A stretch of 24,000 nt of DNA, from assembly GCA_963846695.1 (NCBI GenBank), contig CAWJXL010000002.1, forward strand, positions 257,728-281,727, given 5' to 3'. A program made the translations under genes and the position numbers. This document shows positions 2,608 through 24,000 of this stretch, one piece after another; positions within the stretch are counted from its first letter, which is position 1; each line of letters opens with the position of its first letter. A model generated the notes under the pieces. The model had not been told where the DNA came from. It saw nothing but the letters and a program-made list of their open reading frames with translations, and made no database searches. This stretch comes from an uncultured Fibrobacterota bacterium (GTDB lineage: Bacteria > Fibrobacterota > Chitinivibrionia > Chitinivibrionales > Chitinispirillaceae).

Positions 2608-2616
2608 GATACTGGA

Positions 2617-3468: not shown

Positions 3469-3503
3469 GCAATCCGTTCCCCCCTCGTCCGTCCCCCCGC
3501 GGA

Positions 3504-4806: not shown

Positions 4807-5012
4807 AACGGACCATTTCAATTGAGGTGCACAGCATCGTGAGCCGGGCATGGATCCTGCCCGCTTTGAAAATAGTTTGTAGGACCGGAGAGATCAAAAG
4901 GTATCCGCAGGGTTTTTCGCATCGAGATAGGGGTGAGAGATCGCACTCAGGGGGCGATTCTGCATCGTCATCGAAAAACACCATACCCGCCACGCCAATA
5001 TTGAGAGTCGCA

Positions 5013-5837: not shown

Positions 5838-5966
5838 AAAGAATGCTTCTCTATGACAGATTTCTGATCACCAGATGTTCCGGCAATGCCTCTCCACAGT
5901 TGCGGAATTACCGCTCCTGACACCTGAAACCTATATTCGTCATTCGTCGCCTCCGGAACCGGCGAA

Positions 5967-6278: not shown

Positions 6279-6352
6279 GCGATCCGCACCGCAGTGAACG
6301 CAAAGACAAAAGAAAATACTTTTCGCCGCACGGTTTTTCGCGCCCGATGCGG

Positions 6353-10710: not shown

Positions 10711-10779
10711 AGATGGTAAAAAATACTAAATGAGCCCCTGCCTTTAATACCCGCTCATTTTAAAAGCCCGCGTCTTACA

Positions 10780-10808
10780 TTGACTTCTTTGCCCAGCTGA
10801 GGTATTTT
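10780..10808 (+). promoter_or_regulatory. possible sigma-70-type promoter for the lipoprotein/OMP genes (TTGACT-N17-TATTTT)
   Basis: The hexamers were read directly from the sequence in the divergent intergenic region 10711-10883. The -10 element is weak and the host promoter consensus is unknown. Confidence 0.3.
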
Positions 10809-10883
10809 TCATGATTATTTTAAACCCAACGGATAATAAAGTTGCGGTATGAAGTCCGATGAACAGAGATCAAAAGGCGATGC

Positions 10884-12107
10884 ATGCATAAAAGTGGCTC
10901 ATTTCAATGGCTTTCTCCGCTCTGCTCCTTGATTTTCCTGCTTTTTTTCTGCACTACCGATAACACGACCAACCTCGGCAATACTATTATCAACAACAGC
11001 TATCCTCACTTTCGCGGGTATGTCATGGATAGTTCCGACGTTGACACCGCCGCGTTCAGCCTGCCGAGGCCGGGTGACTCGGGATTCGGCATCCATGAGG
11101 TATCGGGGAGCCAGATGCTGGTCGGAGCCGATAGCGGGGAATACGCGGCGGGGTATGTCCGATTTCCCTGCCTGCCCGACACCAATTCAAGCCGTCAGTA
11201 CGGCTCGAACGATACCTTGCGATCAATCGTACTCCGATTCTGGAACGATACCGCCACCACGTCGTTCCCCCTGCAGGTCTGGCGGTCCGATGTCACCCTT
11301 CACGCCGATTCTCCTTCCGCCGCCAGGGGAGATATTCTGCTGGATTCTCTTCTGATCCTGATGAACGATACGGTGAATGCACTGGATTCCATCGTTCTGC
11401 CGCCCGGCGCTTTCGGGGGCCTGGCCGATTCGATATTCCATGCGTGTACGACCTCAAATAAGGATCTGATACGTTCAACGGTATTTAAGGATACCTTCGG
11501 ATTCATCATTGCCAACCCCAACCCCTCCGCCGGGATTCTCCGGATGTATGGAAACCCGCAGCTTGCGGTGAAATTCAAGCGGGGAAACGATACGACGCCG
11601 GTCATTAACTATGGCTCCATCCACACGTCGTACGATGTCGCAGAAGTTCAAAGTCCCGGTTCCATTTCGCAGCCGATCTCCTATGCCTCGAAAAAAACCC
11701 TGATTTTTCGCTATAACGCGACCAGGCTCTGGGCTTCGGTCGGCCCGGATACCTCCCAGATCGTATCGGCATTTTTCCCGCTGTTCCGGCCCGGCGCCGT
11801 CGATACCATCAGCCTGCGCTACCTGCTCCTTGACTCCCTGGTACATGACGGCAGGATTCTCGACACGTTGTTCGCCAGCCCCCCAAGCCCTCCGGGCGTG
11901 GTGACGCTGTATCAAGGCGACACGGTGCAGGCGAATGCGGCGCAATCGCTGCAATTCATCAATATCCTTGAGAACGAACGACACCAATTGCCTTCCAACC
12001 CGAAACTCTTCCTCTACCTTCGCCTGAGTGAAGATGTAAATCAACTATGGAGAAAATCGAATTATTCCACTACCCCGCTCTTGAATGTGACCGCGGCTTC
12101 GCATTAA
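10884..12107 (+). CDS. hypothetical secreted protein / putative lipoprotein
   Basis: The N-terminal hydrophobic leader ends in LLFFC followed by a T/N-rich linker. I recognise no catalytic motif. The codon usage looks like the backbone, and the next gene starts 11 nt downstream. Confidence 0.6.
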   Translation: MHKSGSFQWLSPLCSLIFLLFFCTTDNTTNLGNTIINNSYPHFRGYVMDSSDVDTAAFSLPRPGDSGFGIHEVSGSQMLVGADSGEYAAGYVRFPCLPDTNSSRQYGSNDTLRSIVLRFWNDTATTSFPLQVWRSDVTLHADSPSAARGDILLDSLLILMNDTVNALDSIVLPPGAFGGLADSIFHACTTSNKDLIRSTVFKDTFGFIIANPNPSAGILRMYGNPQLAVKFKRGNDTTPVINYGSIHTSYDVAEVQSPGSISQPISYASKKTLIFRYNATRLWASVGPDTSQIVSAFFPLFRPGAVDTISLRYLLLDSLVHDGRILDTLFASPPSPPGVVTLYQGDTVQANAAQSLQFINILENERHQLPSNPKLFLYLRLSEDVNQLWRKSNYSTTPLLNVTAASH

Positions 12108-12117
12108 TGGAAAGGTT

Positions 12118-13359
12118 ATGAATAGAAGACTGACCGGAACCGCGATTGCCGCGTTCTGCCTCTGCAGTTCGATCGAGGCGCAATCGATACTCTCACTGGA
12201 GTATCCCGGCGGGGTGCCGCTCGCCCATTCGACCGGGTCCTCGCTTGGCATGGAAGGCGCCGGGACCGGGGTTCAGAACGATTATTTCGGCATGAGCGAC
12301 AACATCGCCAATATAGGCGCCACGAACCGGGTGGTTTTTTCCGGGGTCCTTTCCATGGATCTGGTCGATATCCAGGACAACGGGTCAAGCGGCCGCCTCC
12401 TTTCAGCCATGCCGCGACTGATTTCATTTGAGGTGCCCATTACCGCGCTGGGTACCTTCGGTTTTTCGTTTGATGAACGCAGTTCAACCGATTTCAATTC
12501 GACCGGCTTCAGCACGACGTCAACCGGAGTAACCGACACCAGCCGCATCGCCAGCGTGGGCGGAATCAAGGCCTGGCAGCTCGGCTGGGGACATGGCGTC
12601 GGTCGCCTTGGATACGCCGGCATCAGCGTCGAACGGCTTATTTACTCGAGCTACTACCTCACCCGGTATACCACCAGCGATCCGACCGGGGGGTTTCCCC
12701 TGTGCGATACGAGCAGGTACTCCTCGGAAGGCGATGCCATGAGGGCGGGTATTCTCATCCCGATCGAGAAATTCACCGTCGGACTGAGCGGGGAGTATGT
12801 ATTCAACAGTTCGGCGACCGCCCGGTTCTCCCGCACCGGCGTCATCGACTCAGTGGACAGCATCTCCATCGATTCCACCTCGCGCGGTTTCGCCTTCAGG
12901 CTTCCATCCTCGCTTTCGCTGGGGATCTCGTATGCGCCTTCTCCCAAGTGGCTTTTTGCCGCCTCCTCTGACCTGACATTCTGGAATGCGTATTCGTTCG
13001 GTCTGCCGACCAACAGCAATACCGTCCTTACCTACCTCGTCCACAATACGGTTTCAATTTCGGCCGGGGTGCAATTCATTCCAGCGCCGAATATGCTGAT
13101 GCCGCAGTACTGGCAGATCATGCAGTACCGCGCCGGTATCCGCTACAGCCAATTGCCCGACGGCGCTTCCTCCGAAGGCGCCGTTACCGCGGGGATCGGC
13201 ATTCCCCTCTTAAGCGGGGGGGGGCTTCTCGATCTCAACGCCGAATTCGGACGACGGACCGATACCCGCTTCAGCGGGTATGCTGAAAATTTTCTGCAGG
13301 TTACCGTCGGTCTTGACGGCGGCCGTCAATGGTCGAGGAACACCGGAATCCGCTATTGA
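12118..13359 (+). CDS. putative outer-membrane beta-barrel protein
   Basis: The signal peptide is MNRRLTGTAIAAFCLCSSIEAQ. The body has alternating amphipathic, Gly/Ser/Thr-rich strands, and the C-terminus is aromatic (…NTGIRY). Confidence 0.6.
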   Translation: MNRRLTGTAIAAFCLCSSIEAQSILSLEYPGGVPLAHSTGSSLGMEGAGTGVQNDYFGMSDNIANIGATNRVVFSGVLSMDLVDIQDNGSSGRLLSAMPRLISFEVPITALGTFGFSFDERSSTDFNSTGFSTTSTGVTDTSRIASVGGIKAWQLGWGHGVGRLGYAGISVERLIYSSYYLTRYTTSDPTGGFPLCDTSRYSSEGDAMRAGILIPIEKFTVGLSGEYVFNSSATARFSRTGVIDSVDSISIDSTSRGFAFRLPSSLSLGISYAPSPKWLFAASSDLTFWNAYSFGLPTNSNTVLTYLVHNTVSISAGVQFIPAPNMLMPQYWQIMQYRAGIRYSQLPDGASSEGAVTAGIGIPLLSGGGLLDLNAEFGRRTDTRFSGYAENFLQVTVGLDGGRQWSRNTGIRY

Positions 13360-13409
13360 CGAACCAGGGGAATGATTATCACTCCGTTTCCGCCGTACGT
13401 TGATATTCC

Positions 13410-14033
13410 ATGGCAATCGTGCAAACGCAGAATACCCCCTCTTCCCTCCCCGAGGCCTACGACGAAACCTATCTGCGCGTCCTGATGCGGGATCCCGGCC
13501 GCCTCTTTGCCTTCTGGGAGTTTTCAGCCGGGACTTTGAGAACCGCCGCGCAGGCGGCCGGAAAAAACGGAAGCGGGTTCCGGTCGATACTCCGTCTCTT
13601 CATGCTGGATTCCGCGCCGCACGACCGCGGGCTCTCCGTAGCCGACTTTCCGCTTGCGGAAGGGGAGAGGTCGCGATACATTCCGGTGCCGCAGCAGGGC
13701 CGTTCCTACCGGCTCGAATGCGGTTTTGCAACGCGGTCGGGCAGTTTTTTTCCACTGTGCTCCTCGAACATCGTCCTGACGCCGGATGCGACGGTCCACC
13801 CGTACGGGCCGGGGCCGGGGATTGTCGCAGGGCAACCGACCGCCGGCATCTCCGGCGGCCATCCCGATGATGCGCCGGGCAGGGGAGCGTCGGCGGGCGA
13901 CACGCGGCCCCGCCATGATTCCTCCCTTGTCCCGTCGGACGAACTCCTCCATCTCATGGGCGGCAGCGCGCAGGGTATTCCCTCCCGTGAACCCGGAACG
14001 TCCGCCGCGGACCGCCGCACTCCGGTATGGTAA
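13410..14033 (+). CDS. DUF4912 domain-containing protein
   Basis: YDETYLRVLMRDPGRLFAFWEF matches the DUF4912 N-terminal pattern. It overlaps the GH57 gene by 7 nt, a pairing I recall as common. Confidence 0.7.
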   Translation: MAIVQTQNTPSSLPEAYDETYLRVLMRDPGRLFAFWEFSAGTLRTAAQAAGKNGSGFRSILRLFMLDSAPHDRGLSVADFPLAEGERSRYIPVPQQGRSYRLECGFATRSGSFFPLCSSNIVLTPDATVHPYGPGPGIVAGQPTAGISGGHPDDAPGRGASAGDTRPRHDSSLVPSDELLHLMGGSAQGIPSREPGTSAADRRTPVW

Positions 14034-15649
14034 AACCGTCGCGGATGCCGTCTGGAGCGGAACCCGAAGGGTACCTCTGCCTCGTCCTCCACGCTCACCT
14101 GCCCTTTGTCCGCCATCCCGAACACCCGTATATGCTCGAAGAAAACTGGCTGTTCGAGGGGTTGACCGAGACCTATCTTCCGCTTCTCTCCCATTTTGAA
14201 ACGCTTCACGATGACGGCGTTCCGTTCCGGCTCACCATCTCCCTGTCTCCGGTCCTCTGCGCCATGCTCGCCGATCCGCTTCTGGGGCAACGGTACGAGC
14301 GCCACCTTGAACGACTCATCGAACTTGCGGGGAAGGAGGTCGAGAGGACCGGCCGGCATGAGCCGGAGTTTTTCCCGACGGCGCGCCTGTACCGCGACCG
14401 TTTCATGTACCTCCGCGAGTTTTATGCCGGAACCTGCGGCCGGGACCTTATCGGCGCCTTCAAGCGGCTCCAGGATCTCGGGCATATCGAAATCATCACC
14501 TCGGCCGCGACCCATGCCTTCCTGCCGAACATGCAGCATAATGTCAAGGCCGTGGAGGCGCAGATCGCCATCGCGGTTGAGGACTATCGACGGCTTTTCG
14601 GCCATGAGCCGCGCGGTATCTGGCTGCCGGAGTGCGGGTACTACCCGGGCCTTGAATCGATCCTCGCGCGTCATGGCCTGCGCTACTTTTTCGTCGATTC
14701 GCACGGCTTGCTCTATGCCGATCCGCGACCGTTCCGCGGCATTTACGCCCCTCTTATCTGCAAGGAAGCGCCCCTCGCGGCGTTCGCCCGGGACCAGGAG
14801 TCGTCCAAGGCGGTGTGGAGCGCCGACGAAGGGTATCCCGGCTCGCCGGAGTACCGGGAATTCTATCGCGACATCGGTTTCGAACGCGAACTGGAATACA
14901 TCCGGCCGTATATCGATCCGATCGGGACGCGGGTCCAGACCGGGATCAAGTATTACCGGGTGACCGACCGGAAAAGCGGGGACAAGGAGCCCTACCGCAG
15001 GGGAAGTGCCCTTCGCACGGCGGACCGGCATGCGCATGACTTCATGTTCAACCGGCTGCGCCAGGTCCGGGCGCTCGCCGCCCGCATGGACCGGCCGCCG
15101 GTCATCGTTTCGCCCTACGATGCCGAACTCTTCGGGCACTGGTGGTTCGAGGGGCCGGAATGGCTGAACTTCCTCTTTCGCACCATCGCCTTCGAGCAGG
15201 ACTCCCTCCGGCTTGTCACGCCCTCGGAGTATTGCGCCCGCCACAAGGAAAACCAGACCGGAACGCCGCTCTTTTCGAGCTGGGGCGAGGGCGGCTTCGC
15301 GGGCATGTGGATAGACAAAAGCAACGACTGGGTCCCCCGCCACCTCTCGCGGATGGAGGAGCGCATGACCCGTGCCGCGCAACGCCACCCCCGCGCCCGC
15401 GGCCTCATGCGGCGCGGCCTCAACCAGCTTGCGCGGGAGCTGCTCCTCGCCCAGTCGAGCGACTGGACCTTCATCATGAAAACCGGCACCATGGTGGAGT
15501 ACGCCGAGCGCCGGGTGAGGGAGCACGTCGCGAATTTCCTGCGGCTCGACGGGCAGATTGAGAACGGTCGCCTCGACGAGGGTTTCGTCGCCTCGCTCGA
15601 GGAGCGCACCCCGATTTTTCCGCGGCTCTCCTATTCAGTCTACGCCTGA
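14027..15649 (+). CDS. glycoside hydrolase family 57 protein, 1,4-alpha-glucan branching enzyme type (DUF1957)
   Basis: GYLCLVLHAHLPFVRHPE, ENWLFEGLTETYLPLL, WLPECGY and SPYDAELFGHWWFEGPEWL are typical of GH57 branching enzymes. Confidence 0.9.
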   Translation: MVKPSRMPSGAEPEGYLCLVLHAHLPFVRHPEHPYMLEENWLFEGLTETYLPLLSHFETLHDDGVPFRLTISLSPVLCAMLADPLLGQRYERHLERLIELAGKEVERTGRHEPEFFPTARLYRDRFMYLREFYAGTCGRDLIGAFKRLQDLGHIEIITSAATHAFLPNMQHNVKAVEAQIAIAVEDYRRLFGHEPRGIWLPECGYYPGLESILARHGLRYFFVDSHGLLYADPRPFRGIYAPLICKEAPLAAFARDQESSKAVWSADEGYPGSPEYREFYRDIGFERELEYIRPYIDPIGTRVQTGIKYYRVTDRKSGDKEPYRRGSALRTADRHAHDFMFNRLRQVRALAARMDRPPVIVSPYDAELFGHWWFEGPEWLNFLFRTIAFEQDSLRLVTPSEYCARHKENQTGTPLFSSWGEGGFAGMWIDKSNDWVPRHLSRMEERMTRAAQRHPRARGLMRRGLNQLARELLLAQSSDWTFIMKTGTMVEYAERRVREHVANFLRLDGQIENGRLDEGFVASLEERTPIFPRLSYSVYA

Positions 15650-15753
15650 ATTTTACTTACGGTATTATTGTCTTCTAGGGAAAGTGTTAATAAGAGCAAA
15701 AAAAGTCCGTAAAAAATGCTATATTTCCGAAAGAGCCGAAAAAGGGAGTATTT

Positions 15754-16320
15754 ATGCGGGAAATGATACTCACGATTCTTTTGTTCTGTGTGACATCGGG
15801 CAACAGCGAATCGGATACCCCGAAAACACGGAAAGGAGACTCCGCCATGGATACTATCACCGTTGTCAGCACCGCGTTCGGGCAGATGCAGCCGATCCCG
15901 GAGGCCTATACCTGCGACGGCGCCGACGTTTCGCCGCCGCTCTCGTGGGGCGAACTTCCGGCAGGAACAAAGAGCATCGCGCTCATCTGCGACGATCCCG
16001 ACGCGCCCCGCGGCACCTGGGTTCACTGGGTCGCCTACGACCTGCCGCCGACCTGTCAAGGGTTGCCCCAAGGCGTCGAAAAAACGGGAACGCTGAAGGG
16101 GGGCGGCAAACAGGGGAAAAACGACTTTCCCGAAATCGGGTACAACGGTCCCTGCCCGCCGGGCGGCACCCACCGCTACTTCTTCAAGGTGTATGCCCTC
16201 GACACGATGCTCGATCTGCCGCCCGGGAAAACCAAGCGCGAGGTTGAAAAGGCGATGAAGGGGCATGTCCTGGGGCGGGGGGAGCTTACAGGAACATATT
16301 CAAGGAAACCGCGCCCTTAA
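15754..16320 (+). CDS. YbhB/YbcL family Raf-kinase-inhibitor-like (PEBP) protein with N-terminal signal-like leader
   Basis: CDGADVSPPLSW, LICDDPDAPRGTWVHW, GYNGPCPPGGTHRYFFKVYALD are present. An AAAGGGAG Shine-Dalgarno sequence lies upstream of ATG 15754. Confidence 0.9.
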   Translation: MREMILTILLFCVTSGNSESDTPKTRKGDSAMDTITVVSTAFGQMQPIPEAYTCDGADVSPPLSWGELPAGTKSIALICDDPDAPRGTWVHWVAYDLPPTCQGLPQGVEKTGTLKGGGKQGKNDFPEIGYNGPCPPGGTHRYFFKVYALDTMLDLPPGKTKREVEKAMKGHVLGRGELTGTYSRKPRP

Positions 16321-16380
16321 TGCTACCTGTTTTCGCGGTTTACGTTAAGACGTATTTAAAGGGCCTTCGAAGGCAATTAT

Positions 16381-16413
16381 AACGCCATTAGAACGGCATT
16401 AAAACGGCCTGCC
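16381..16413. repeat. about 2.5 tandem copies of an 11-bp unit (AACGCCATTAG / AACGGCATTAA / AACGGCctgcc)
   Basis: Read directly from the sequence. The 11-bp spacing is about one helical turn. The third copy shares only its first 6 nt. Confidence 0.5.
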
Positions 16414-16503
16414 TTTCCACGCCCCCGCCGCCGGAAAAGCATTGCAATCGGATCATGAGCATTTCAGCGATCACCTGAATGCAGATCGCCGGCTTCCACG
16501 GCG

Positions 16504-16622
16504 AAAATTGTGCCGTTTTGCGCCATTATTGCGCCGGCGGTGCAATAAAAAACCGCAAATAAACGCTCCAAAGGCCAAAATTGCGCTTTTTTTGCGCCGT
16601 TTTTCATTTTAACGGCGCAAAA
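16504..16622. repeat. two about 25-bp imperfect direct repeats (16504-16528, 16577-16601) built on TTTTGCGCC(A/G)TT, plus an inverted third copy forming a 12-bp perfect hairpin (16590-16601 / 16611-16622, 9-nt loop)
   Basis: Read directly from the sequence: aaaattgtgccgttttgcgccatt versus aaaattgcgctttttttgcgccgtt. The inverted arm is aacggcgcaaaa. There is also a near-palindrome attgcgccggcggtgcaat at about 16528-16546. Confidence 0.6.
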
Positions 16623-16647
16623 ATATTTACACAAAAGAACATCCGCG

Positions 16648-16989
16648 TCACAAGGTACAGATTGCGCCGAGACGGTCCTCAAGGAGCTTTTGCGCGGCGT
16701 ACAGGTCCCGCAGTTTCTCCTTGCCGAAATCCCTGGCCTTGATCGCCTCGCGCACTTTCGCAAGCTGCGCGCCGACCTCTTCCACCTTGCCTAACTGGTT
16801 GATGCCGAACTTTTCGAGCGACTCTTCAAGCATCGCTCGATGCGCCGCCCAGACGTCTTCTTTCAGGGCTTGGGCCCAGTACTGGAGGGTCCGGCGGGAG
16901 ACTTTCAACTGCTCCGCGATTTTGGGGAACGATATTCCCCGCGCACGCAGTTGGATGAATTGTTCCTTCAAATCACGCGAGTACGACAT
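16648..16989 (-). CDS. small helix-turn-helix DNA-binding protein, function unknown
   Basis: The N-terminal FIQLRARGISFPKIAEQLKVSRRTLQYW looks like a resolvase/terminase-small/IS-type HTH, and the rest is predicted helical. GC is backbone-like (about 58% in one counted line). Confidence 0.55.
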   Translation of the reverse strand: MSYSRDLKEQFIQLRARGISFPKIAEQLKVSRRTLQYWAQALKEDVWAAHRAMLEESLEKFGINQLGKVEEVGAQLAKVREAIKARDFGKEKLRDLYAAQKLLEDRLGAICTL

Positions 16990-17263
16990 GGACGACTTAT
17001 CCTTTCAATCCCCTTTGTTTGGTTTTTCTATCAGTCCGGCACTGCCGCTATGCCGGAAAAAGAGATTTAGACATCGCCATTCAGCTTCAGCCTGTTTCTT
17101 GAAAAGCGACCCTATGGCCGGATATGGCGATGACAGGTGATAATATACTATATTCTCTATTAACAATCACACCCACCTCTGCAACACATTTATTATCAAT
17201 ATGTTATGTATTTGCCGGAATAGCATTTAAGAGGTCTTAATAAGAGTAGCTAAAGAGGCATGA

Positions 17264-17279: not shown

Positions 17280-17625
17280 AGAAGAATTGCAAATTTTTAA
17301 GGGTTTCTAGGAAAAATGGGTCTAAAGGTGTAGATTCTGATTTTCCAATGTAATTTGGTCTTCGGTGTGTCCATTACTTCGGGTACCGTTCGCTTCTGGT
17401 GCTTGTTCACGCTGCTTTAATATCCCGGTCGTACTTATCTCAAAGAATCTTGCGCTTTTCTATCTATTGCCTCCGCATTTTACGATATGTAATATCGTTC
17501 ACGCGGCCAAAAAGGTAAAGACGCCGTTGGCAGGAGGCTTACTGGGTAGGTGAGTTTGGCCGATATTCAATTCACCATTAAATACAGTTTTCTATTAACG
17601 TGCTGCAATATAAGGCAACACCGGG

Positions 17626-18042
17626 TTATTCAACCGGCAGCATCGTCCCTAATGTTAAACCCGATATCCCACCGATTATCGCCCAAGGCCCACCAATCAA
17701 TTTTCCGATGCCGAGCCCGGCGACGCAACATAGAAGGATATTAATTGTTTGCTTCTCCTGCTTACGTTCGAAGGAAAGAGGTGCTCGCGTTTGCCCATGC
17801 CACCTGCGCGCAGTGCGAGTGGACCTCGTGCCCTTCTCAAGATTGCAAGGAATACAGGCAGGCAGGAGATTGGTGAGGCGGTCCGAACCGCCTTGTGATT
17901 TGGGAACCGAATGATCGATATGCCACGCACCGCGGAAGCTATAGTCACCATAATTTGAAAAAGCCAGATTCTTTCTACATATATGGCAACGTCCATCCGT
18001 TTTATTAAAAATCACGTTTAGCATCTCATTATCAATGAGCAT
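17626..18042 (-). CDS. HNH endonuclease with C-terminal glycine-zipper/transmembrane tail
   Basis: HNH motifs are CHIC...WHIDHSVPKSQGGSD...NLLPACIPCNLEKG. The C-terminal 35 aa ILLCCVAGLGIGKLIGGPWAIIGGISGLTLGTML are hydrophobic with repeated GxxxG. GGAGGG lies upstream of the ATG. Confidence 0.8.
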   Translation of the reverse strand: MLIDNEMLNVIFNKTDGRCHICRKNLAFSNYGDYSFRGAWHIDHSVPKSQGGSDRLTNLLPACIPCNLEKGTRSTRTARRWHGQTRAPLSFERKQEKQTINILLCCVAGLGIGKLIGGPWAIIGGISGLTLGTMLPVE

Positions 18043-18099
18043 ACACCCTCCGGGAATTAAAAATGCTTCAAGAAAAAAATAGTTTGCTGCAAAAAGGTT

Positions 18100-18393
18100 T
18101 TATTTTTTGCCGCATGTCTCGCTGACATTTGCCGATACGAGTTTTGTTGAATCACCTACCTCAAGGGATTTACCCTTTTCTGCATTATGAGATTTGCACA
18201 AGGGAACAATGTACCAACTATTATCCGTTGAGTTATCCTTCTGCACATGTGCACCCACCTCAGTTTTTTCATAGCAGCTTAATACCGGGCAATAGATGGA
18301 AATTGATAGTCCGCTAAATTTTTTCCAATGATCAAGCCAACTTCCACATTTGCAGGTATTATCACTTGTTCCATTAATATTTCTTATTTTCAT
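18100..18393 (-). CDS. Cys/His-rich 97-aa protein with His-Me-finger-like signature (putative minimal HNH-type nuclease or zinc-binding protein)
   Basis: The pattern CKCGSWLDHW...CPVLSC...GAHV...YIVPLCKSHNAEKG resembles a beta-beta-alpha-metal finger with flanking zinc ligands. AAGGAG lies upstream of the ATG, and the gene ends 57 nt upstream of the HNH gene. Confidence 0.6.
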   Translation of the reverse strand: MKIRNINGTSDNTCKCGSWLDHWKKFSGLSISIYCPVLSCYEKTEVGAHVQKDNSTDNSWYIVPLCKSHNAEKGKSLEVGDSTKLVSANVSETCGKK

Positions 18394-18503
18394 ACGATTC
18401 TCCTTAATCTTCAGATTGATGTTAATTTTTCATTTCCCAAAGCTGGGTGAACTTGAAAATGCAAGGTTATTGAACTGATTTTTCCGATAAAATCCAAAGA
18501 CGA

Positions 18504-18704
18504 TTATCCTTTGGGTCTGTCACCTTCGCGGATTTGACCATTCCGGCGGTGTATGAAGAGTTCTGTGTGCTGATTCTGGGCAATACTACGAGCGGCATCG
18601 ATGGCTTCGCCTTGCGTCGTATAAAAAGAAGTCATGCGTTCGCTGCCTTCCGCCCTGATTCCCCACTGACCATCTGACGGTACAACATGCTGGTTTCTCC
18701 CCAT
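18504..18704 (-). CDS. DUF2188 domain-containing protein
   Basis: HVVPSDGQWGIRAEGSERMTSFYTTQGEAIDAARSIAQNQHTELFIHRRNGQI matches the DUF2188 pattern as I recall it. AAGGAG lies upstream of the ATG. Confidence 0.72.
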   Translation of the reverse strand: MGRNQHVVPSDGQWGIRAEGSERMTSFYTTQGEAIDAARSIAQNQHTELFIHRRNGQIREGDRPKG

Positions 18705-18750
18705 GATATGCTCCTTTTAAAGGTTTTCGGGGATGTTATCGATTGGCCTT

Positions 18751-18779
18751 AATATATATTTTGAGTGATCTATTGGCAA
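18751..18779 (-). promoter_or_regulatory. candidate sigma-70 promoter for the minus-strand cassette (TTGCCA-N17-TATATT)
   Basis: The hexamers and the 17-nt spacer were counted directly on the reverse complement. The -10 element is about 45 nt upstream of ATG 18704. Confidence 0.45.
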
Positions 18780-18801
18780 CAATTATTAGAGTTTGTATTA
18801 T
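18773..18801 (+). promoter_or_regulatory. candidate sigma-70 promoter for the XRE-ImmA-MTase operon (TTGGCA-N17-TATTAT)
   Basis: The hexamers and spacer were counted directly. Its -35 element overlaps the -35 of the divergent promoter within TTGGCAA at 18773-18779. Confidence 0.45.
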
Positions 18802-18806
18802 CTTAC

Positions 18807-18821
18807 GTTGGTAGAGCCAAC
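18807..18821. promoter_or_regulatory. operator-like inverted repeat GTTGG-N5-CCAAC just downstream of the -10 element
   Basis: Read directly from the sequence. It sits at the predicted transcription start of the XRE operon. Further TTGGC half-sites lie at about 18743, 18773 and 18834. Confidence 0.35.
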
Positions 18822-18864
18822 TTTTCCCATTGCTTGGCTTGATTCAACATTTTATTTTGATTGC

Positions 18865-19230
18865 ATGCCCCGTGGAAATAGAATCGAGAAGGTTTTTACA
18901 CTCATTGGCAAGAAAATCAGATCTGCACGATCAAAAACAGATTTATCCCAGGATGATCTTGCAGCAAAGGTCAAGCTTGAACGTTCTTCAATAGTCCTCA
19001 TAGAGAGCGGAAAGCAAAGGCTTCCCATTGACCGGCTCTATCTCGTTGCGCGTGAACTTGGGACAACACCGCAAAAACTACTGCCGGAAATGAAAGAAAT
19101 TTTTGAGGAAGCCGATATGGAAAATCCCGCAGTTACTATTCATGGCGGAACTATAGAAGGCAAGAATGAAATGGGAAAGAAGATATTAAAAATGCTTGAA
19201 CAGCAGAAAGGCGGAGGTAAACATACATGA
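18865..19230 (+). CDS. XRE-family helix-turn-helix transcriptional regulator
   Basis: IGKKIRSARSKTDLSQDDLAAKVKLERSSIVLIESGKQRLPIDRLYLVARELG is a classic HTH_3/XRE domain. I chose ATG 18865 over TTG 18793 because the predicted promoter lies inside the longer ORF. Confidence 0.85.
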   Translation: MPRGNRIEKVFTLIGKKIRSARSKTDLSQDDLAAKVKLERSSIVLIESGKQRLPIDRLYLVARELGTTPQKLLPEMKEIFEEADMENPAVTIHGGTIEGKNEMGKKILKMLEQQKGGGKHT

Positions 19231-19757
19231 GAAAAGACACGGTTGAAAGGAAGGCTCGTCTTCTTATCAACAAATGCAACATCAAGACTCCCCCTGTGGA
19301 CATAGTAATTATCGCTAATGGTTTGGATGTCCGCGTTACTAAGGCCAATCTACCTGATGATATTTCCGGCGTTTTGCAGAAGAATGCAACAGGAATAAGC
19401 ACAATAATGGTCAACAACGAGCATGCACCTGTTCGGCAGCGTTTCACCATTGCACATGAATTGGGGCACTACCTTCTTTCAGATAAAACAGGAGTCATTA
19501 TAGATCAGGCGATTTATTTTCGAGACTCACGGTCACAGGAAGCCGCCGATTATGATGAAATAGTTGCTAACACCTTTGCAGCGGAATTGCTGATGCCTAC
19601 ACCATTTGTTAAAAGTGCAATAAGCCGGATAATCAGCGGAGGCAGACTCAATGCACGCGATGACCTGATAAAAATGCTTGCCGATGATTTCAATGTCAGT
19701 ACAACCGCAATGAGCATAAAATTGCAAAATCTTGGATACCGTTTCTCGGTAGCTTAA
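19227..19757 (+). CDS. ImmA/IrrE-family zinc metallopeptidase
   Basis: HEXXH is present in FTIAHELGHYLL. The size and downstream EAADYDEIVANTFAAELLMP are typical of the family. It overlaps the XRE gene stop through ATGA. Confidence 0.88.
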   Translation: MRKDTVERKARLLINKCNIKTPPVDIVIIANGLDVRVTKANLPDDISGVLQKNATGISTIMVNNEHAPVRQRFTIAHELGHYLLSDKTGVIIDQAIYFRDSRSQEAADYDEIVANTFAAELLMPTPFVKSAISRIISGGRLNARDDLIKMLADDFNVSTTAMSIKLQNLGYRFSVA

Positions 19758-19774
19758 ACTGCAAGGCACCTACT

Positions 19775-22672
19775 ATGCCCAATAAGCGCTCCATTATCTC
19801 CACGTTCTCCCGCGCAACGCTTCTCGAAATTGCCCGCTCTTTTGAACTGCCGGGCCTTACCTCAAAGCCGAAAGAAGAAATCCTCGCTGCCCTCATGGGA
19901 AAACGAACTGCAACGATTGAAGAGATATTGAACACCCTGTCGGTAGCGGATATTAAGGCGATCTGCAAGGAATTCTCGATTCCCACCGGGTCGGCGAAGA
20001 AAGACGATCTTGTTGCAAGGCTCCTGAACGGCGAAGCCGGGGACCCGGAAGAAAACCTGGGTCCTAAAGGTAAGCCGCCGCAACCCGAAAAAACGACGCC
20101 AAAAAACTCAAATCAAAAAACCGGATTTCCTATGCCTAAAAGCGATTCAAACGGCAAGCCTATTGAACAATATACCCACGATAAGGAAGAACGGCTCAAT
20201 AACCCGCCGGTGGGTCTTGTGACCCCGCAGACCGATAAAGACGGCGCAAAGAAGAAATACGCCTACGACCCCCACCTTGACCCGCAGCTCCAATGGGCCG
20301 GGAAAGCCGAGCATACCAGCTTCGAAGTACCGACCGTGAGCCTGCACGTACACGAGCGGATCGACCCGAAGAGAATAATAGAACAGATTAAAAAAGAAGA
20401 GAAAAAAGACTCTGAACAAATTTCAATGTTCGAAACGCAGGAGCGGCCGCTCCGGGAAGCCATAGAATTTTATAAACATAAAGACGGATGGACCAACAGG
20501 CTCATTGCCGGTGATTCACTGCTTGTAATGAATTCGTTACTGGAAAAAGAGGGAATGGGCGGGAAGGTGCAGATGGTGTATTTTGACCCGCCGTATGGAA
20601 TCACATATAAAAGTAATTTTCAACCATTTACCAACAAAAAGGAAGTAAAAGATACCGATAATGATTTAGCTACTGAACCTGAAACGATCAAGGCATTTCG
20701 GGATACTTGGGAATTAGGAATTCACTCTTATCTGACTTACCTGCGCGACAGAATATTGCTCGCAAAAATGCTTATATCAGATTCTGGGTGCATATGTTTG
20801 CAGATGAATTCAGAAAATGTCGCCATTACTCGATTGCTTCTTGACGAGATATTTGGCATAAATAACTTGGTTGCCGATATCGTTTTTCGGAAAAAAAGCC
20901 TACCTCTCGGCGCCAAATACGTTGAGACAATGCACGATCACATTCTTTGCTATGCCAAGGATAAAGACCAATTTAAGTATCGCCAACTTTTTCAATATAT
21001 GGATGAGGTAACAAGTCATTGGAGATTCGCTTTACTACCAAATGGGGAAATCCTTCGAATTGCACCTCAGGAATTTCGTTCACCGCAACATCCGAAGGGC
21101 ACAAGATATTATCGGTTGTTCTCTCTAATTGCGCCTTCTTACAGCGCGAACACGGATTTCGTTTATAAATATAAGGGCAAAGAATATCGTCCACCGAGTA
21201 ATGGGTCATGGGTAGTAGACAAACAAAAGCTTGATAAGCTTGCTTTAATTGAAAGGCTTGAAATTGAAGGAAGCAGCATAAGTTATCGATTATTCTTTGA
21301 TGATTTTCCTTATCGAAAGCTTACAAACCTTTGGCTCGATGTTGCGGTATCCTACCAAAAGTTATATGCAGTCCAGACTACTGAGCAGGTAATTTCTCGC
21401 TGTTTATTAATGACCACCGATCCCGGCGATCTCGTCCTCGATATCACTTGCGGTTCCGGTACATCCGCATATGTCGCCGAACAGTGGGGCCGCCGCTGGG
21501 TCACCTGCGACACCTCCCGCGTCGCTATCACCCTCGCAAAACAGCGTCTCATGTCGGCTGTTTACGATTATTATGAGCTTGCGCAACCAGCAGAAGGAAT
21601 TTCCTCGGGCTTCAAATACAAAACGGTTCCGCACATCACGCTCAAGTCCATCGCCAATAACGAGCCCGCAGTCCCGGAGACTCTTTACGACCAGCCTTTA
21701 ATCGACACGAAAAGAAAGCGCGTCACCGGCCCCTTTACCGTCGAAGCCGTCCCCGCCCCTACGGTCAAATCCTTCGACGATATAGAGTCCGAAAACACCG
21801 GAGTTTCCGATACCTCGGTCGCCCGTTCCGGCGAGACCTTGCGGCAGTCGGAGTGGCGGGAAGAACTGCTCCGCACCGGGGTGCGCGGCAAGAACGGGCA
21901 GTATATTAAATTCAGCCGGATCGAGCCGATGAGCGGCACCCGGCATTTGCAGGCCGAAGGGGAAACGAAGTGGTCGGATGCCGGGGCAAATACGGTTCGC
22001 GAAGAGCCGAAGGAGTGGCGACCGCAACGGGTTTTAATCTGCTTCGGCCCGGAACATGCGCCGCTCGAACGGCGGACGGTAGAAAACGCCTGGCAGGAGG
22101 CGCGACCATTCAAGCCGGATATTCTGCTTTTCTGCGCTTTTCAGTTTGACGAAGAGGCGGCAAAGGATATCGACGAGCTAAAGCCGGAAATTGCCGGAAT
22201 GCAACTTCTGAAGGTGCAGATGAACGCTGATTTATTAACCGACGATCTTCGCAAGAAGCGGTCGAGCAATGAGAGCTTCTGGCTCATCGGGCAACCGGAC
22301 GTTGAATTGCGGGAGATCAAAAAGGGCGAACACAAGGGGAAGTATGAGATCGAGGTTTTGGGATTCGATTACTACAACCCGAAAACCGGGGTGGTCGAAT
22401 CAGGCGGCAAGCATCAGATTGCCATGTGGATGCTCGATACCGATTACGACGGAAGAAGCCTTTTCCCCTCTCAGGTATTTTTCCCCATGGCCGGGGAAAG
22501 CGAGGGGTGGGCGACACTCGCGCGAAATCTCCGCGCGGAAATCGATGAGGAAAAAATGGAAGCTTTTCGCGGCACGGTTTCGTTGCCCTTCAGCGCAGCC
22601 AGTGGGAAACAAGCGGCGGTGAAAATCGTGGATGACAGGGGAATTGAAAGCTTGAAGATTGTGAGGATATAG
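19775..22672 (+). CDS. site-specific DNA methyltransferase, beta-class N6A/N4C family, type III Mod-like, 965 aa with N-terminal tandem SAP/HeH-like motifs and a long C-terminal extension
   Basis: Motif IV, VQMVYFDPPYGI (DPPY at 20585-20596), precedes motif I, LVLDITCGSGTSAYVAEQWGRRWVTCD (about 21434-21500). The conserved blocks YDPHLDPQLQWAGK and MWMLDTDYDGRSLFPSQVFFPMAG are those I associate with long Mod-like enzymes. Confidence 0.92.
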   Translation: MPNKRSIISTFSRATLLEIARSFELPGLTSKPKEEILAALMGKRTATIEEILNTLSVADIKAICKEFSIPTGSAKKDDLVARLLNGEAGDPEENLGPKGKPPQPEKTTPKNSNQKTGFPMPKSDSNGKPIEQYTHDKEERLNNPPVGLVTPQTDKDGAKKKYAYDPHLDPQLQWAGKAEHTSFEVPTVSLHVHERIDPKRIIEQIKKEEKKDSEQISMFETQERPLREAIEFYKHKDGWTNRLIAGDSLLVMNSLLEKEGMGGKVQMVYFDPPYGITYKSNFQPFTNKKEVKDTDNDLATEPETIKAFRDTWELGIHSYLTYLRDRILLAKMLISDSGCICLQMNSENVAITRLLLDEIFGINNLVADIVFRKKSLPLGAKYVETMHDHILCYAKDKDQFKYRQLFQYMDEVTSHWRFALLPNGEILRIAPQEFRSPQHPKGTRYYRLFSLIAPSYSANTDFVYKYKGKEYRPPSNGSWVVDKQKLDKLALIERLEIEGSSISYRLFFDDFPYRKLTNLWLDVAVSYQKLYAVQTTEQVISRCLLMTTDPGDLVLDITCGSGTSAYVAEQWGRRWVTCDTSRVAITLAKQRLMSAVYDYYELAQPAEGISSGFKYKTVPHITLKSIANNEPAVPETLYDQPLIDTKRKRVTGPFTVEAVPAPTVKSFDDIESENTGVSDTSVARSGETLRQSEWREELLRTGVRGKNGQYIKFSRIEPMSGTRHLQAEGETKWSDAGANTVREEPKEWRPQRVLICFGPEHAPLERRTVENAWQEARPFKPDILLFCAFQFDEEAAKDIDELKPEIAGMQLLKVQMNADLLTDDLRKKRSSNESFWLIGQPDVELREIKKGEHKGKYEIEVLGFDYYNPKTGVVESGGKHQIAMWMLDTDYDGRSLFPSQVFFPMAGESEGWATLARNLRAEIDEEKMEAFRGTVSLPFSAASGKQAAVKIVDDRGIESLKIVRI

Positions 22673-22674
22673 CG

Positions 22675-24000
22675 ATGAACGGACAAAATCGGTTTGAGCC
22701 TATCGAACAGGCGCTTCTAAAACCGGCAGGTGCGCGGTTTTGGAAATGCGCCTTGCAAATTAATCCTTTTGATTATGCAAAGAATTTCCAAGGAGACAAA
22801 TCTGTCCAAAGCGAAGATGCCTATAATCGTGCTTTATGTGATGCATGCGTTACAAATAAAGTGGAAATTGTTGGCATTGCCGATCACGGCTCGGTTGAAA
22901 GGATCGATAATCTTCGTGCTATTCTTGAAAAGGTCTCTATTTGCGTTTTCCCTGGCTTCGAAATTGCAAGCACCGAAAAGATACATATGGTTTGCCTTTT
23001 TGAGCCCGGCACCCCGATAACAACTCTCAATCGGTATCTTGGAAATCTGGATATGACTGATTCTTCTGACCCAGTGCACCCATCAAATTTTAGCTGCCTT
23101 GAGTTAGGAAAAAAAATTCTTGATCTGGGCGGTATCTGGTATGCCGCACATATGACAGGGAATAACGGCTTATTAAAACTTGATGGCCCCGGAGATAATT
23201 ATAAGCATATCTGGGAAAATGAACATATAGTTCTTGCAGGTCAGATTCCCGGTTTGAAAAAAGATCTCCCGGAAAACTATTTGAAAATAATTGACAATAT
23301 TAACGTTGATTATTATCGCAACAGGAAAATTGCGGTTATTAATGCCAGAGATGTTTTCTTGCCGGAGGACATTTCGAATGCATCTTCCACCTGCCACATA
23401 AAAATGACTTTGCCGAGCATTGAAGCGCTGAAACAGGCATTTTTTGATCCTGAATCAAGAATCCGTCTGCAAGCCGAAATCGAGCATCACCCACCATCCA
23501 GAATTATCGCCATTGCCTGGGAAGGTAATTTTCTCGATGGAATCAGAATACATTTAGGCGAGAATCTTAATGCCTTGATTGGAGGACGCGGAACCGGAAA
23601 ATCCACCATAATCGAAACAATCCGATACGCATTTAATAAAGCTCCCCTTGGTGAGGAAGCCCGTAAAGCTTGTCTTGAAATTCTTAAATCAAATATGGGT
23701 TCTGGGACGCAGGTTAGCCTGAAAATTGCATCCCAGACAAGGCTCGGAAAAGAGTTCATAATTCGTCGTCGGTTTGGAGATCCTCCGGAGGTTTTTGATG
23801 ATGCGGGTATGCTCTCTCAATTTTCTCCTAATGAATTAATGCCAGGACTTCAAATTCTTGGCCAAAATGAAATAATTGAAATTGCGCGCAACACTGCAAG
23901 CCAGTATGAACTAATTAAAAAATTTATTCCCGACAGTGCTGCGCTTCAAAAACGGATTGCCGAAATACGAAAAAAACTTTCGGATAATCGAATGCGGCTT
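22675..24000 (+). CDS. PHP-like phosphoesterase domain fused to SMC/ABC-type (AAA-like) ATPase; 3' end beyond window
   Basis: My own translation from ATG 22675 (2 nt after the MTase stop) runs 442 codons without a stop to the window end. PHP-like blocks are VEIVGIADHGS, VFPGFEIAS, IHMVCLF and WYAAHM. The ATPase head has NLNALIGGRGTGKSTIIETIRYAF (Walker A at 23581-23607), followed by LGQNEIIE and a helical, coiled-coil-like stretch. Confidence 0.85.
   Translation, partial: MNGQNRFEPIEQALLKPAGARFWKCALQINPFDYAKNFQGDKSVQSEDAYNRALCDACVTNKVEIVGIADHGSVERIDNLRAILEKVSICVFPGFEIASTEKIHMVCLFEPGTPITTLNRYLGNLDMTDSSDPVHPSNFSCLELGKKILDLGGIWYAAHMTGNNGLLKLDGPGDNYKHIWENEHIVLAGQIPGLKKDLPENYLKIIDNINVDYYRNRKIAVINARDVFLPEDISNASSTCHIKMTLPSIEALKQAFFDPESRIRLQAEIEHHPPSRIIAIAWEGNFLDGIRIHLGENLNALIGGRGTGKSTIIETIRYAFNKAPLGEEARKACLEILKSNMGSGTQVSLKIASQTRLGKEFIIRRRFGDPPEVFDDAGMLSQFSPNELMPGLQILGQNEIIEIARNTASQYELIKKFIPDSAALQKRIAEIRKKLSDNRMRL

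What the first reader, a model, noticed from the sequence alone, without database searches (positions are those of the whole stretch)
18865..24000. Candidate regulated, methylation-linked defence operon: XRE - ImmA/IrrE - Mod-like MTase - PHP/ABC-ATPase, with no Res helicase in view
Four same-strand genes are packed with coupling-type junctions: an ATGA overlap at 19227-19230, a 17-nt gap before the MTase, and a 2-nt gap before the last ORF. The MTase has the motif order (DPPY before the SAM-binding loop) and conserved blocks of type III Mod-like enzymes. Where a Res SF2 helicase-nuclease would be expected, the next gene instead encodes a PHP-like phosphoesterase fused to an SMC/ABC-type ATPase head. 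I recall a PHP-plus-ATPase architecture only as the single-gene Ppl defence reported by Gao et al. 2020. I do not recognise its translational coupling to a Mod-like MTase under a repressor/protease switch as a described system. A PHP nuclease/phosphoesterase with an ABC ATPase as the restriction arm and the MTase as the self-marking arm is a plausible reading. The window ends inside the ATPase, so further components are unknown.
Basis: partly seen in the sequence, partly recalled or inferred. Interest (0 to 1): 0.8.

Follow-up and report, generated by a model that had tools for sequence, protein, structure and literature searches.

The report
Restriction-modification operon carrying an embedded TrlF cassette
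The four genes are real, but they most likely form the front half of a type III-like restriction-modification operon that has a separate, uncharacterised PHP-nuclease/ATPase cassette (TrlF, usually with TrlG) inserted between its methylase and its restriction gene, and are not a new methylase-plus-PHP restriction system.

Summary
XRE (18865-19230), ImmA/M78 (19227-19757), a 965-aa Mod-like methyltransferase (19775-22672) and a PHP + ABC-ATPase ORF (22675 to the window end) lie on one strand with exactly the junctions described.

The interpretation that the PHP-ATPase replaces Res is not supported.
- In 80 metagenome loci with a 57-81% identical Mod, a Res gene (NCBIfam BPTD_3080 family restriction endonuclease, Pfam ResIII) follows in 71. 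The other 9 contigs end within 1.9 kb of Mod.
- In 15 of the 71, 0.65-2.9 kb of cargo sits between mod and res. It includes SoFic, HEC-01, HEC-09, a DUF1828 pair and toxin-antitoxin-like genes.
- The last ORF belongs to the TrlF family, named after the Photorhabdus temperature-restriction locus, and is not Ppl.
- TrlF is followed by TrlG (AlbA_2 + HATPase_c_4) in 56 of 72 genome loci.
- Wherever this Mod precedes TrlF and enough DNA is available (5 of 5 loci), the order is Mod-TrlF-TrlG-Res.
- TrlF-TrlG also sits between hsdS and hsdR of type I systems.

The window therefore most likely shows a regulated type III-like R-M chassis with an embedded TrlF(-TrlG) cassette. The cassette is a plausible but untested defence module. 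The window's own downstream DNA could not be retrieved.

The parts
17626..18042 (-). HNH endonuclease gene (138 aa), the last gene of the divergent minus-strand unit
   Evidence: Pfam HNH, E 3e-9. A 50% identical homologue sits in the same position in L092.
18100..18393 (-). 97-aa Cys/His-rich ORF of unknown family, between DUF2188 and HNH
   Evidence: ORF list. No Pfam, NCBIfam or PADLOC match.
18504..18704 (-). DUF2188 gene (66 aa), divergent from XRE; matches the PADLOC candidate PDC-S16
   Evidence: Pfam DUF2188, E 6e-22. PADLOC PDC-S16, E 1.5e-26. Conserved in divergent position next to XRE-ImmA-Mod in L089 and L092.
18705..18864 (.). Divergent control region with back-to-back promoter-like sites and a 13-nt direct repeat (candidate operators)
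   Evidence: Promoter-like sites: + strand 18773-18801 (TTGGCA-17-TATTAT) and - strand 18779-18751. Direct repeat GTnATCnATTGGC at 18735-18747 and 18765-18777. These are consensus matches only.
18865..19230 (+). XRE-family HTH repressor (121 aa), CapH-like
   Evidence: Pfam HTH_19/HTH_3. PADLOC control protein E 9e-12 and capH E 1e-11. 61% identical to the homologue in L089.
19227..19757 (+). ImmA/IrrE-type M78 zinc metallopeptidase (176 aa), CapP-like; HELGH at 19455-19469
   Evidence: Pfam Peptidase_M78, E 3e-19. PADLOC capP, E 1e-31. Motif position.
19775..22672 (+). Mod-like beta-class N6/N4 DNA methyltransferase (965 aa). SAP-like N-terminal extension (aa 52-85), DPPY at 20585-20596, CGSGT at 21449-21463, and a conserved C-terminal region of about 330 aa.
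   Evidence: Pfam N6_N4_Mtase E 4e-27 and SAP. PADLOC MTase_III PDLC03632, E 9e-141. PDB type III Mod subunits 6k0w and 4zcf. Relatives are paired with Res.
22675..24000 (+). N-terminal 442 codons of a TrlF-family protein, cut by the window end. The PHP nuclease-like domain spans about aa 1-265. The ABC/SMC-type ATPase head starts at about aa 270, with Walker A at 23581-23604.
   Evidence: NCBIfam TrlF_fam_ATP: 223 bits over model positions 2-462 of 944. Ppl: only 55 bits. AlphaFold model plus Foldseek: EndoQ, RNase AM and SMC/Rad50 heads.

Best explanation
The region is the 5' part of a horizontally acquired, type III-like restriction-modification operon. The operon consists of a long Mod methyltransferase plus, beyond the window, a BPTD_3080-family SF2 helicase-type Res.

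Its mod-res junction is used as an insertion slot for self-contained accessory defence cassettes. In this window the slot holds a TrlF gene (PHP nuclease-like domain + ABC/Rad50-like ATPase). TrlF is most probably followed by TrlG (Schlafen/AlbA_2 + HATPase_c_4) and then by res.

Shown:
- the gene order and junctions in the window;
- the family assignments;
- the near-universal Mod-Res pairing;
- the use of the mod-res slot by known defence genes;
- the TrlF-TrlG pairing;
- the recurrence of TrlF-TrlG between the modification and restriction genes of both type III-like and type I systems.

Inferred:
- Mod methylates host sites and Res restricts unmethylated DNA in the usual way.
- TrlF-TrlG acts as an independent, probably abortive-infection-type second layer. 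The ABC ATPase TrlF would sense a nucleic-acid or phage cue. Toxicity would come from the PHP nuclease and/or the Schlafen-like TrlG. This fits the TrlG-dependent growth arrest of the Photorhabdus temperature-restriction locus.
- The XRE/ImmA pair is a CapH/CapP-type repressor and DNA-damage-activated protease. It sits at a divergent promoter region and likely controls the minus-strand DUF2188-HNH unit. Because no terminator intervenes, it probably also controls read-through into mod and the cargo.
For: Family assignments:
- NCBIfam TrlF scores 223 bits on the half-length window fragment. Full-length relatives exceed the 350-bit cut-off: L084 502 bits, L154 593 bits.
- The PHP and SMC-head folds are confirmed.
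- Res scores 1090-1095 bits on NF046055 (cut-off 800) and matches Pfam ResIII.

Mod-Res pairing:
- Of 80 metagenome loci with Mod relatives, 71 have Res: 56 directly adjacent and 15 with cargo between. The 9 without Res have no more than 1873 nt after Mod.

Cargo in the slot:
- SoFic (E 3.5e-116), HEC-01A/B (E 1e-161 and 1e-68), HEC-09, PD-T4-4, a PDC-S37/Hhe-like gene, PDC-S22 and PDC-M24B.

Mod-TrlF-TrlG-Res operons:
- L084 has Mod 7371-9980, TrlF 9977-12625, TrlG 12641-13834 and Res 13819-16632.
- L021, L016, L037 and L018 have the same order, some with additional cargo.

TrlF-TrlG as a unit:
- They are adjacent in 56 of 72 genome loci.
- They are embedded in type I R-M on plasmid pCFR-0b27 and in L066.

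Closest Mod relatives:
- L089 (69% identical Mod): DUF2188(-), XRE, ImmA, Mod, SoFic, Res.
- L086 (81% identical Mod): AlbA_2, Mod, SoFic, Res.

Other support:
- A rough NJ tree puts the window's TrlF outside the type III-embedded clade, which implies independent insertion.
- GC content drops from 58.9% to 45.8% at the island.
- Embedding of defence systems inside other defence operons is documented by Payne et al., bioRxiv 10.1101/2024.01.29.577857.
- The TrlG-dependent growth arrest is reported in PMC7554251.
- CapH/CapP biology and its link to DUF2188 operons are described in bioRxiv 10.1101/2022.04.27.489752.
Against: - The window ends inside TrlF. The source contig (314 kb, holding the 100% identical Mod P0121) could not be retrieved. 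TrlG and Res are therefore predicted, not seen.
- The window's TrlF is only 40-50% identical to any TrlF found and lies outside the clade of Mod-embedded TrlFs.
- 16 of 72 TrlF loci have no TrlG.
- No experiment shows that TrlF-TrlG defends against phage. It is absent from PADLOC-DB v2.0.0, where only partial Ppl hits appear.
- Res is only weakly similar to canonical type III Res models (PADLOC REase_III E 4e-9, no PDB sequence hit). 'Type III-like' rests on Mod and on operon logic.
- In L151 and L154 a TrlF-family gene sits directly upstream of Mod-Res. This recurrent linkage could mean functional cooperation, not passive embedding.
Confidence: 0.75

Rival explanations
1. Mod plus the PHP-ATPase form a Res-less, R-M-like system. 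The PHP nuclease with its ABC ATPase cuts unmethylated DNA, and Mod marks self.
For: Mod and the PHP-ATPase are separated by only 2 nt with a Shine-Dalgarno-like sequence. The PHP domain's best structural match is the DNA endonuclease EndoQ. TrlF-family genes touch this Mod family in two different arrangements, embedded and directly upstream.
Against: All informative relatives of this Mod have a Res: 71 of 80 loci, with the rest on truncated contigs. All five Mod-TrlF loci with enough sequence carry Res after TrlG. About 90% of TrlF loci have no such Mod nearby. The same slot holds unrelated cargo such as SoFic and HEC-01.
Confidence: 0.05
2. TrlF-TrlG is not autonomous cargo. It is functionally wired to the host R-M as a guard, in the way PrrC works with EcoprrI. 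The R-M complex would hold it inactive, and it would fire when a phage anti-restriction factor disables Mod/Res.
For: TrlF-TrlG occupies the PrrC-like position (hsdM-hsdS-X-hsdR) in type I systems and the mod-X-res position here. The junctions overlap and look translationally coupled in L084. TrlF-family genes link to this R-M family repeatedly in different arrangements. PrrC is cited as almost exclusively type I-embedded by Payne et al..
Against: Most TrlF-TrlG pairs stand alone, with no R-M gene within 10 kb. The Photorhabdus locus is toxic without any R-M partner. The slot also holds several systems reported to work autonomously (HEC-01, HEC-09, SoFic).
Confidence: 0.15
3. TrlF-TrlG is a stress- or temperature-responsive growth-arrest (toxin-antitoxin or addiction-like) module with no antiviral role. 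It merely hitch-hikes in the R-M island and stabilises it.
For: The only experimental phenotype is temperature-induced growth arrest in Photorhabdus (PMC7554251). TA-like genes (MNT/HEPN, PIN) share the slot. TrlF genes are often disrupted by an IS element or a frameshift.
Against: The domain set (ABC ATPase + nuclease-like domain + Schlafen-like domain) is typical of defence systems. TrlF is related to anti-phage Ppl. Its companions in the slot are mostly validated or candidate defence systems. It lies next to McrBC-like genes and type I R-M elsewhere.
Confidence: 0.1

Closest known systems
Type III restriction-modification systems (EcoP15I/EcoP1-type Mod + Res)
   Same: The Mod is a beta-class N6/N4 methyltransferase with DPPY before the SAM loop. 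Its best solved-structure relatives by sequence are type III Mod subunits, and it matches the REBASE-derived PADLOC MTase_III model. In relatives, a roughly 930-aa ResIII/SF2 helicase-type partner lies downstream in the same operon.
   Different: The Mod is 835-970 aa, against about 640, with a long conserved C-terminal region and here a SAP-like N-terminus. The Res belongs to the separate NCBIfam BPTD_3080 family and is barely detected by canonical REase_III models. Accessory genes are often inserted between mod and res. The operon is preceded by a CapH/CapP-like pair, not a classical C protein alone.
Temperature restriction locus TrlR-TrlF-TrlG of Photorhabdus laumondii (PMC7554251)
   Same: The last ORF belongs to the same NCBIfam family as TrlF (PHP + AAA-like/ABC ATPase). 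In most relatives a TrlG-type AlbA_2 + HATPase_c_4 gene follows directly.
   Different: No TrlR-type small regulator is present here. The gene is embedded behind a DNA methyltransferase. Sequence identity to other family members is 40-50% or lower. The window does not reach the TrlG position.
Ppl single-gene anti-phage protein (Gao et al. 2020, recalled from memory; NCBIfam NF042955, PADLOC PDLC02208)
   Same: Same overall architecture: an N-terminal PHP phosphoesterase plus an ABC-type ATPase with a long insert.
   Different: The window fragment scores 55 bits and full-length L084 TrlF 155 bits, against a cut-off of 1000. TrlF usually has a partner gene (TrlG), whereas Ppl works alone.
Defence systems embedded in other defence operons ('guilt by embedding', Payne et al. 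2024 bioRxiv 10.1101/2024.01.29.577857; PrrC in type I R-M)
   Same: Autonomous defence cassettes (HEC-01, HEC-09, PD-T4-4, SoFic) sit between the genes of a host defence operon. TrlF-TrlG behaves like such a cassette and is also found between hsdS and hsdR.
   Different: That study analysed Hma, BREX, DISARM and type I R-M as hosts. Here the host is a type III-like Mod/Res pair. TrlF-TrlG is not among the PADLOC v2.0.0 HEC or PDC models.
CapH/CapP (and ImmR/ImmA, DdrO/IrrE) repressor-protease switches (Lau et al., bioRxiv 10.1101/2022.04.27.489752)
   Same: An XRE HTH gene overlaps an M78 HExxH peptidase gene. PADLOC capP scores E 1e-31 and capH E 1e-11. A DUF2188 gene lies divergently, as described for CapH/CapP-associated operons.
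   Different: The pair is also co-directional with, and only 17 nt from, the mod gene. It may therefore drive two operons. Cleavage and DNA-damage sensing are untested.

Membership tests
Type III R-M | Mod subunit: beta-class N6/N4 MTase with motif IV (DPPY) N-terminal to motif I, homologous to known Mod subunits | tested here: met
   DPPY at aa 271-274 and CGSGT at aa 559-563. PADLOC MTase_III, E 9e-141. PDB 6k0w and 4zcf Mod subunits.
Type III R-M | Res subunit (SF2 helicase-nuclease) encoded in the same operon | not testable with these tools
   The window ends at 24000 inside TrlF and the source contig is not retrievable. In relatives, Res is present in 71 of 80 Mod loci and in 5 of 5 Mod-TrlF loci with enough DNA.
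Type III R-M | Res of relatives is homologous to canonical type III Res (EcoP15I-like) | tested here: inconclusive
   Pfam ResIII E 5e-11 and NCBIfam BPTD_3080 family restriction endonuclease 1090 bits. However, PADLOC REase_III scores only E 4e-9 and there is no PDB sequence hit.
TrlF family (NCBIfam NF045780) | Whole-protein score at or above the curated 350-bit cut-off | tested here: inconclusive
   The window fragment (442 of about 890 aa) scores 223 bits over model positions 2-462. Full-length relatives L084 and L154 score 502 and 593 bits.
TrlF family (NCBIfam NF045780) | N-terminal PHP domain fused to an ABC/SMC-like ATPase | tested here: met
   AlphaFold model with pLDDT 89. Foldseek matches EndoQ, RNase AM PHP and SMC/Rad50 heads. 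A profile hit to the PHP protein 9etk.
Trl locus (TrlF-TrlG pair) | AlbA_2 + HATPase_c_4 gene immediately downstream of TrlF | not testable with these tools
   This position lies beyond the window end. The gene is present in 56 of 72 related genome loci. Pfam domains were confirmed on L084 TrlG.
Ppl (Gao et al. 2020) | Match to the Ppl family model at its curated threshold | tested here: not met
   NCBIfam Ppl_antiphage scores 54.6 bits (window) and 155 bits (L084), against a cut-off of 1000. The PADLOC Ppl hit is partial only.
MADS | Homology of the MTase and ATPase to mad2 and mad3, plus the other mad genes | tested here: not met
   mad2 E 3e-8 and mad3 E 1e-4 are only generic domain-level hits, far below the MTase_III and TrlF matches. 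No other mad genes were seen.
Hma | HmaA helicase, HmaB methylase and HmaC ATPase homologues | tested here: not met
   No Hma model appears among the PADLOC hits listed for Mod (best 25 of 39), TrlF or Res. Only the embedded cargo (HEC-01, HEC-09) is shared with Hma loci.
CapH/CapP-type regulator pair | XRE HTH repressor gene adjacent to an M78 HExxH metallopeptidase gene, next to a defence operon | tested here: met
   Pfam and PADLOC hits. HELGH motif. Divergent DUF2188 unit and co-directional Mod operon, conserved in L089 and L092.
CapH/CapP-type regulator pair | ssDNA/DNA-damage-stimulated cleavage of the repressor, leading to de-repression | not testable with these tools
   This requires biochemistry or reporter assays.

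The most novel reading that the evidence does not exclude
TrlF-TrlG is a previously unrecognised anti-phage system that is repeatedly captured between the modification and restriction genes of type I and type III-like R-M operons. It may act there as a guard that fires when the R-M complex is disabled or overwhelmed. On this reading, the 'temperature restriction' of Photorhabdus would be autoimmunity of this system. The mod-res junction of the BPTD_3080-type R-M family would be a new hunting ground for embedded defence genes.
Probability: 0.3. Interest if true: 0.65.

Novelty: new variant of a known kind. Interest (0 to 1): 0.45.

Why it matters
- It corrects an attractive but wrong reading. 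The PHP-ATPase does not replace Res; it is cargo inside an R-M operon.
- It extends 'guilt by embedding', described for Hma, BREX, DISARM and type I R-M, to a widespread type III-like Mod/Res family. That family's mod-res slot holds validated systems alongside unknown cassettes.
- It nominates TrlF-TrlG as a defence candidate. This pair is common on plasmids and chromosomes, and its only known phenotype is heat-induced growth arrest. Clear mutational targets are available.
- It gives a natural example of a CapH/CapP-type DNA-damage switch placed in front of an R-M operon and a divergent DUF2188-HNH unit.

Tried and rejected
Attempts to extend the window:
- Exact look-ups of the Mod protein and of its 100% identical database copy P0121 found no contig.
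- The ImmA look-up returned only a 4.4-kb contig that ends inside mod.

Families rejected:
- Ppl (far below threshold).
- MADS (generic hits only).
- Hma (no matches).

Searches that found nothing:
- Sequence search of Res against solved structures.
- Literature searches for a defence role of TrlF or TrlG. Only the Photorhabdus paper turned up.

Other checks:
- I looked for a common alternative partner in the 16 TrlF loci that lack TrlG and found none.
- I checked whether XRE/ImmA travels with TrlF. It does not. It travels with the SAP-extended Mod clade and DUF2188, whatever the cargo.
- The protein homologue search for TrlF returned only truncated or split proteins under 770 aa, although intact genes of about 890 aa are common in genomes. 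I treated this as a property of the search, not as biology.
Full report
**Observation.**
- XRE 18865-19230 overlaps ImmA 19227-19757 in ATGA.
- A 17-nt gap precedes a 965-aa ORF at 19775-22672.
- A 2-nt gap, with a GAGGA Shine-Dalgarno-like sequence, precedes an ORF that starts at 22675 and is still open at 24000.

Profile searches confirm each domain call.
- XRE matches HTH_19/HTH_3. ImmA matches Peptidase_M78 and has an HELGH motif.
- The 965-aa ORF matches N6_N4_Mtase, with DPPY (aa 271) before the SAM loop CGSGT (aa 559). PADLOC MTase_III scores E 9e-141, and the nearest solved relatives are type III Mod subunits.
- For the last ORF, an AlphaFold model built on 39 sequences (pLDDT 89) matches the PHP nucleases EndoQ and RNase AM in its first domain and SMC/Rad50 heads in its second domain.

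**What the last gene is.** NCBIfam places it in the 'TrlF family AAA-like ATPase' (223 bits on half a protein). Ppl scores only 55 bits against a cut-off of 1000. Full-length relatives pass the TrlF cut-off: L084 502 bits and L154 593 bits, against 350.

TrlF is named after the temperature restriction locus TrlR-TrlF-TrlG of Photorhabdus laumondii. There, loss of TrlG (AlbA_2 + HATPase_c_4) or of the whole operon relieves growth arrest at 36 C (PMC7554251).

A scan of one genome per species with a TrlF N-terminal profile gave 80 loci. In 56 of the 72 loci with enough downstream DNA, a roughly 400-aa AlbA_2/HATPase_c_4 gene follows TrlF directly. The other 16 have no common partner.

**What the methyltransferase belongs to.** The exact Mod protein exists in the protein collection (P0121, on a 314-kb contig), but that contig could not be fetched.

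The next relatives are informative.
- The 81% relative sits in AlbA_2-Mod-small ORF-Fic-Res.
- The 69% relative sits in DUF2188(-)-XRE-ImmA-Mod-Fic-Res.
- The Fic gene is SoFic (PADLOC E 3.5e-116).
- The Res is a 'BPTD_3080 family restriction endonuclease' (1090-1095 bits, cut-off 800) with a Pfam ResIII helicase domain.

A metagenome scan with Mod gave 80 loci at 57-81% identity.
- Res follows in 71 of them. The gap is 33 nt or less in 54 and 261 nt in two more, where the Mod alignment stops early. In 15 loci the gap is 0.65-2.9 kb.
- The nine loci without Res all end within 1.9 kb of Mod.

The inserts include HEC-01A/B (E 1e-161 and 1e-68), HEC-09 (NYN), a fused ATPase-Toprim-like gene, a recurrent pair of an unassigned ~160-aa gene and a DUF1828 gene (the latter matching PDC-M24B), MNT/HEPN, PIN and KilA-N (PDC-S22). 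This Mod/Res family therefore has a cargo slot between mod and res.

**TrlF in that slot.** Among the TrlF loci, every one that has this Mod upstream and enough DNA continues TrlG-Res.
- L084 has Mod 7371-9980, TrlF 9977-12625, TrlG 12641-13834 and Res 13819-16632, all overlapping or nearly so.
- L021 is equivalent.
- L016, L018 and L037 carry additional cargo in the same slot: HEC-01, PD-T4-4 and a PDC-S37/Hhe-like gene.

TrlF-TrlG also lies between hsdS and hsdR of type I systems, on the Citrobacter IncC plasmid pCFR-0b27 and in L066. In L151 and L154 a TrlF-family gene lies directly upstream of Mod-Res.

Most TrlF-TrlG pairs have no R-M gene nearby. On a rough NJ tree, the window's TrlF falls outside the clade of type III-embedded TrlFs. 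The embedding therefore arose more than once. This is the behaviour that Payne et al. describe for autonomous defence cassettes embedded in Hma, BREX, DISARM and type I R-M.

**The regulators.** XRE and ImmA match CapH (E 1e-11) and CapP (E 1e-31).
- They travel with the SAP-extended Mod clade whatever the cargo: TrlF here, SoFic in L089, KilA-N in L092.
- They always have a divergent DUF2188 gene (PADLOC PDC-S16). L092 also has the HNH gene.
- Lau et al. report that CapH/CapP usually lie divergent to the operon they control and are linked to DUF2188 operons.
- The 160-nt intergenic region contains back-to-back promoter-like sites and a 13-nt direct repeat.

The switch therefore probably serves the DUF2188-HNH unit and, by read-through, the mod operon. 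This step is inferred.

**Mechanism proposed.**
- Mod methylates host sites, and a downstream BPTD_3080 Res restricts unmodified DNA. This is inferred from homology and operon conservation.
- TrlF-TrlG acts as a separate second layer, in which an ABC ATPase senses a cue and a PHP and/or Schlafen-like nuclease domain arrests growth. This is inferred from the domains, from the relation to Ppl and from the Photorhabdus phenotype.
- A guard relationship with the R-M, as in PrrC, cannot be excluded.

**Verdict.** The finding is real but is best read as a type III-like R-M operon with an embedded TrlF(-TrlG) cassette, not a Res-less MTase/PHP-ATPase system. What is novel is the host type for embedding and the nomination of TrlF-TrlG as a defence candidate.

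Noticed in passing
window 1-17000 versus 17600-24000: GC content falls from 58.9% to 45.8% where the HNH/DUF2188/XRE/Mod/TrlF block begins. Upstream genes are housekeeping (GH57 branching enzyme, HtrA-like protease). The block looks like a horizontally acquired island.
   Followed up: partly
window 17626-18704 (- strand); L089 8692-8922; L092 7880-8939: A divergent unit of DUF2188 (PADLOC PDC-S16), a 97-aa Cys/His-rich ORF and an HNH endonuclease is conserved next to XRE-ImmA-Mod. It may be the primary target of the CapH/CapP-like switch.
   Followed up: partly
L091-L170 (mod-res gaps, e.g. L099 3770-5511, L107 9688-11424, L111 2783-4061, L153 4352-5035, L145 7232-7877): The mod-res junction of this R-M family works as a small defence island. 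It holds HEC-01A/B, HEC-09, a fused ATPase-Toprim-like gene, a recurrent 160 aa + 262 aa pair (the larger has DUF1828 and matches PDC-M24B), MNT/HEPN, PIN and SoFic. L165 (2655-4141) has two unassigned ORFs.
   Followed up: partly
L154 3758-6550 and L151 about 7190-9952: A 930-aa TrlF-family protein (also 385 bits to Ppl) sits 10 nt upstream of Mod-Res, with no TrlG. This is a second, different linkage between PHP-ATPases and this R-M family.
   Followed up: partly
L086 8689-9927: In the closest retrievable Mod relative (81% identical), a TrlG-like AlbA_2 + HATPase_c_4 gene stands alone immediately upstream of Mod, without TrlF.
   Followed up: no
L171 (plasmid NZ_CP026233.1, 184977-200236): On an IncC conjugative plasmid, TrlF and a TrlG homologue annotated 'RNA-binding domain-containing protein' lie between hsdS and hsdR of a type I R-M. 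722 plasmid records hold a match to the TrlF N-terminal half, 272 of them over at least 80% of the query, mostly in Enterobacteriaceae.
   Followed up: partly
window 22747-22764 (TrlF aa 25-30): At the end of the first beta-strand, where I expect canonical PHP domains to carry the HxH metal-binding motif (from memory, not tested), TrlF relatives have C25, A26, L27, Q28 and N30 invariant (CALQ-x-N; position 29 is nearly invariant V and is I in the window). Other PHP-like positions (H71, E96, H104, H159, D226) are also invariant in the 39-sequence alignment.
   Followed up: no
L001 11375-12460; L004 10001-12650; L003 10001-12013: TrlF genes are often disrupted: an IS insertion in L001, a frameshift split into 460 + 447 aa in L004, and a truncation in L003. 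The protein homologue search returned only products under 770 aa, although intact genes of about 890 aa are common in genomes.
   Followed up: no
L016 4196-6109 and 9423-9980: The Mod of L016 appears split. Its body lies about 3.3 kb upstream, and a 185-aa ORF resembling the Mod C-terminus sits just before TrlF, with HEC-01A/B in between. This suggests insertion into, or duplication of, the 3' end of mod.
   Followed up: no
L006 9768-9965, L007, L009, L010: Free-standing TrlF-TrlG pairs in Burkholderiales are preceded by a small ORF of about 65-115 aa that looks like a ribbon-helix-helix (CopG-like) protein. It may be the counterpart of TrlR.
   Followed up: no
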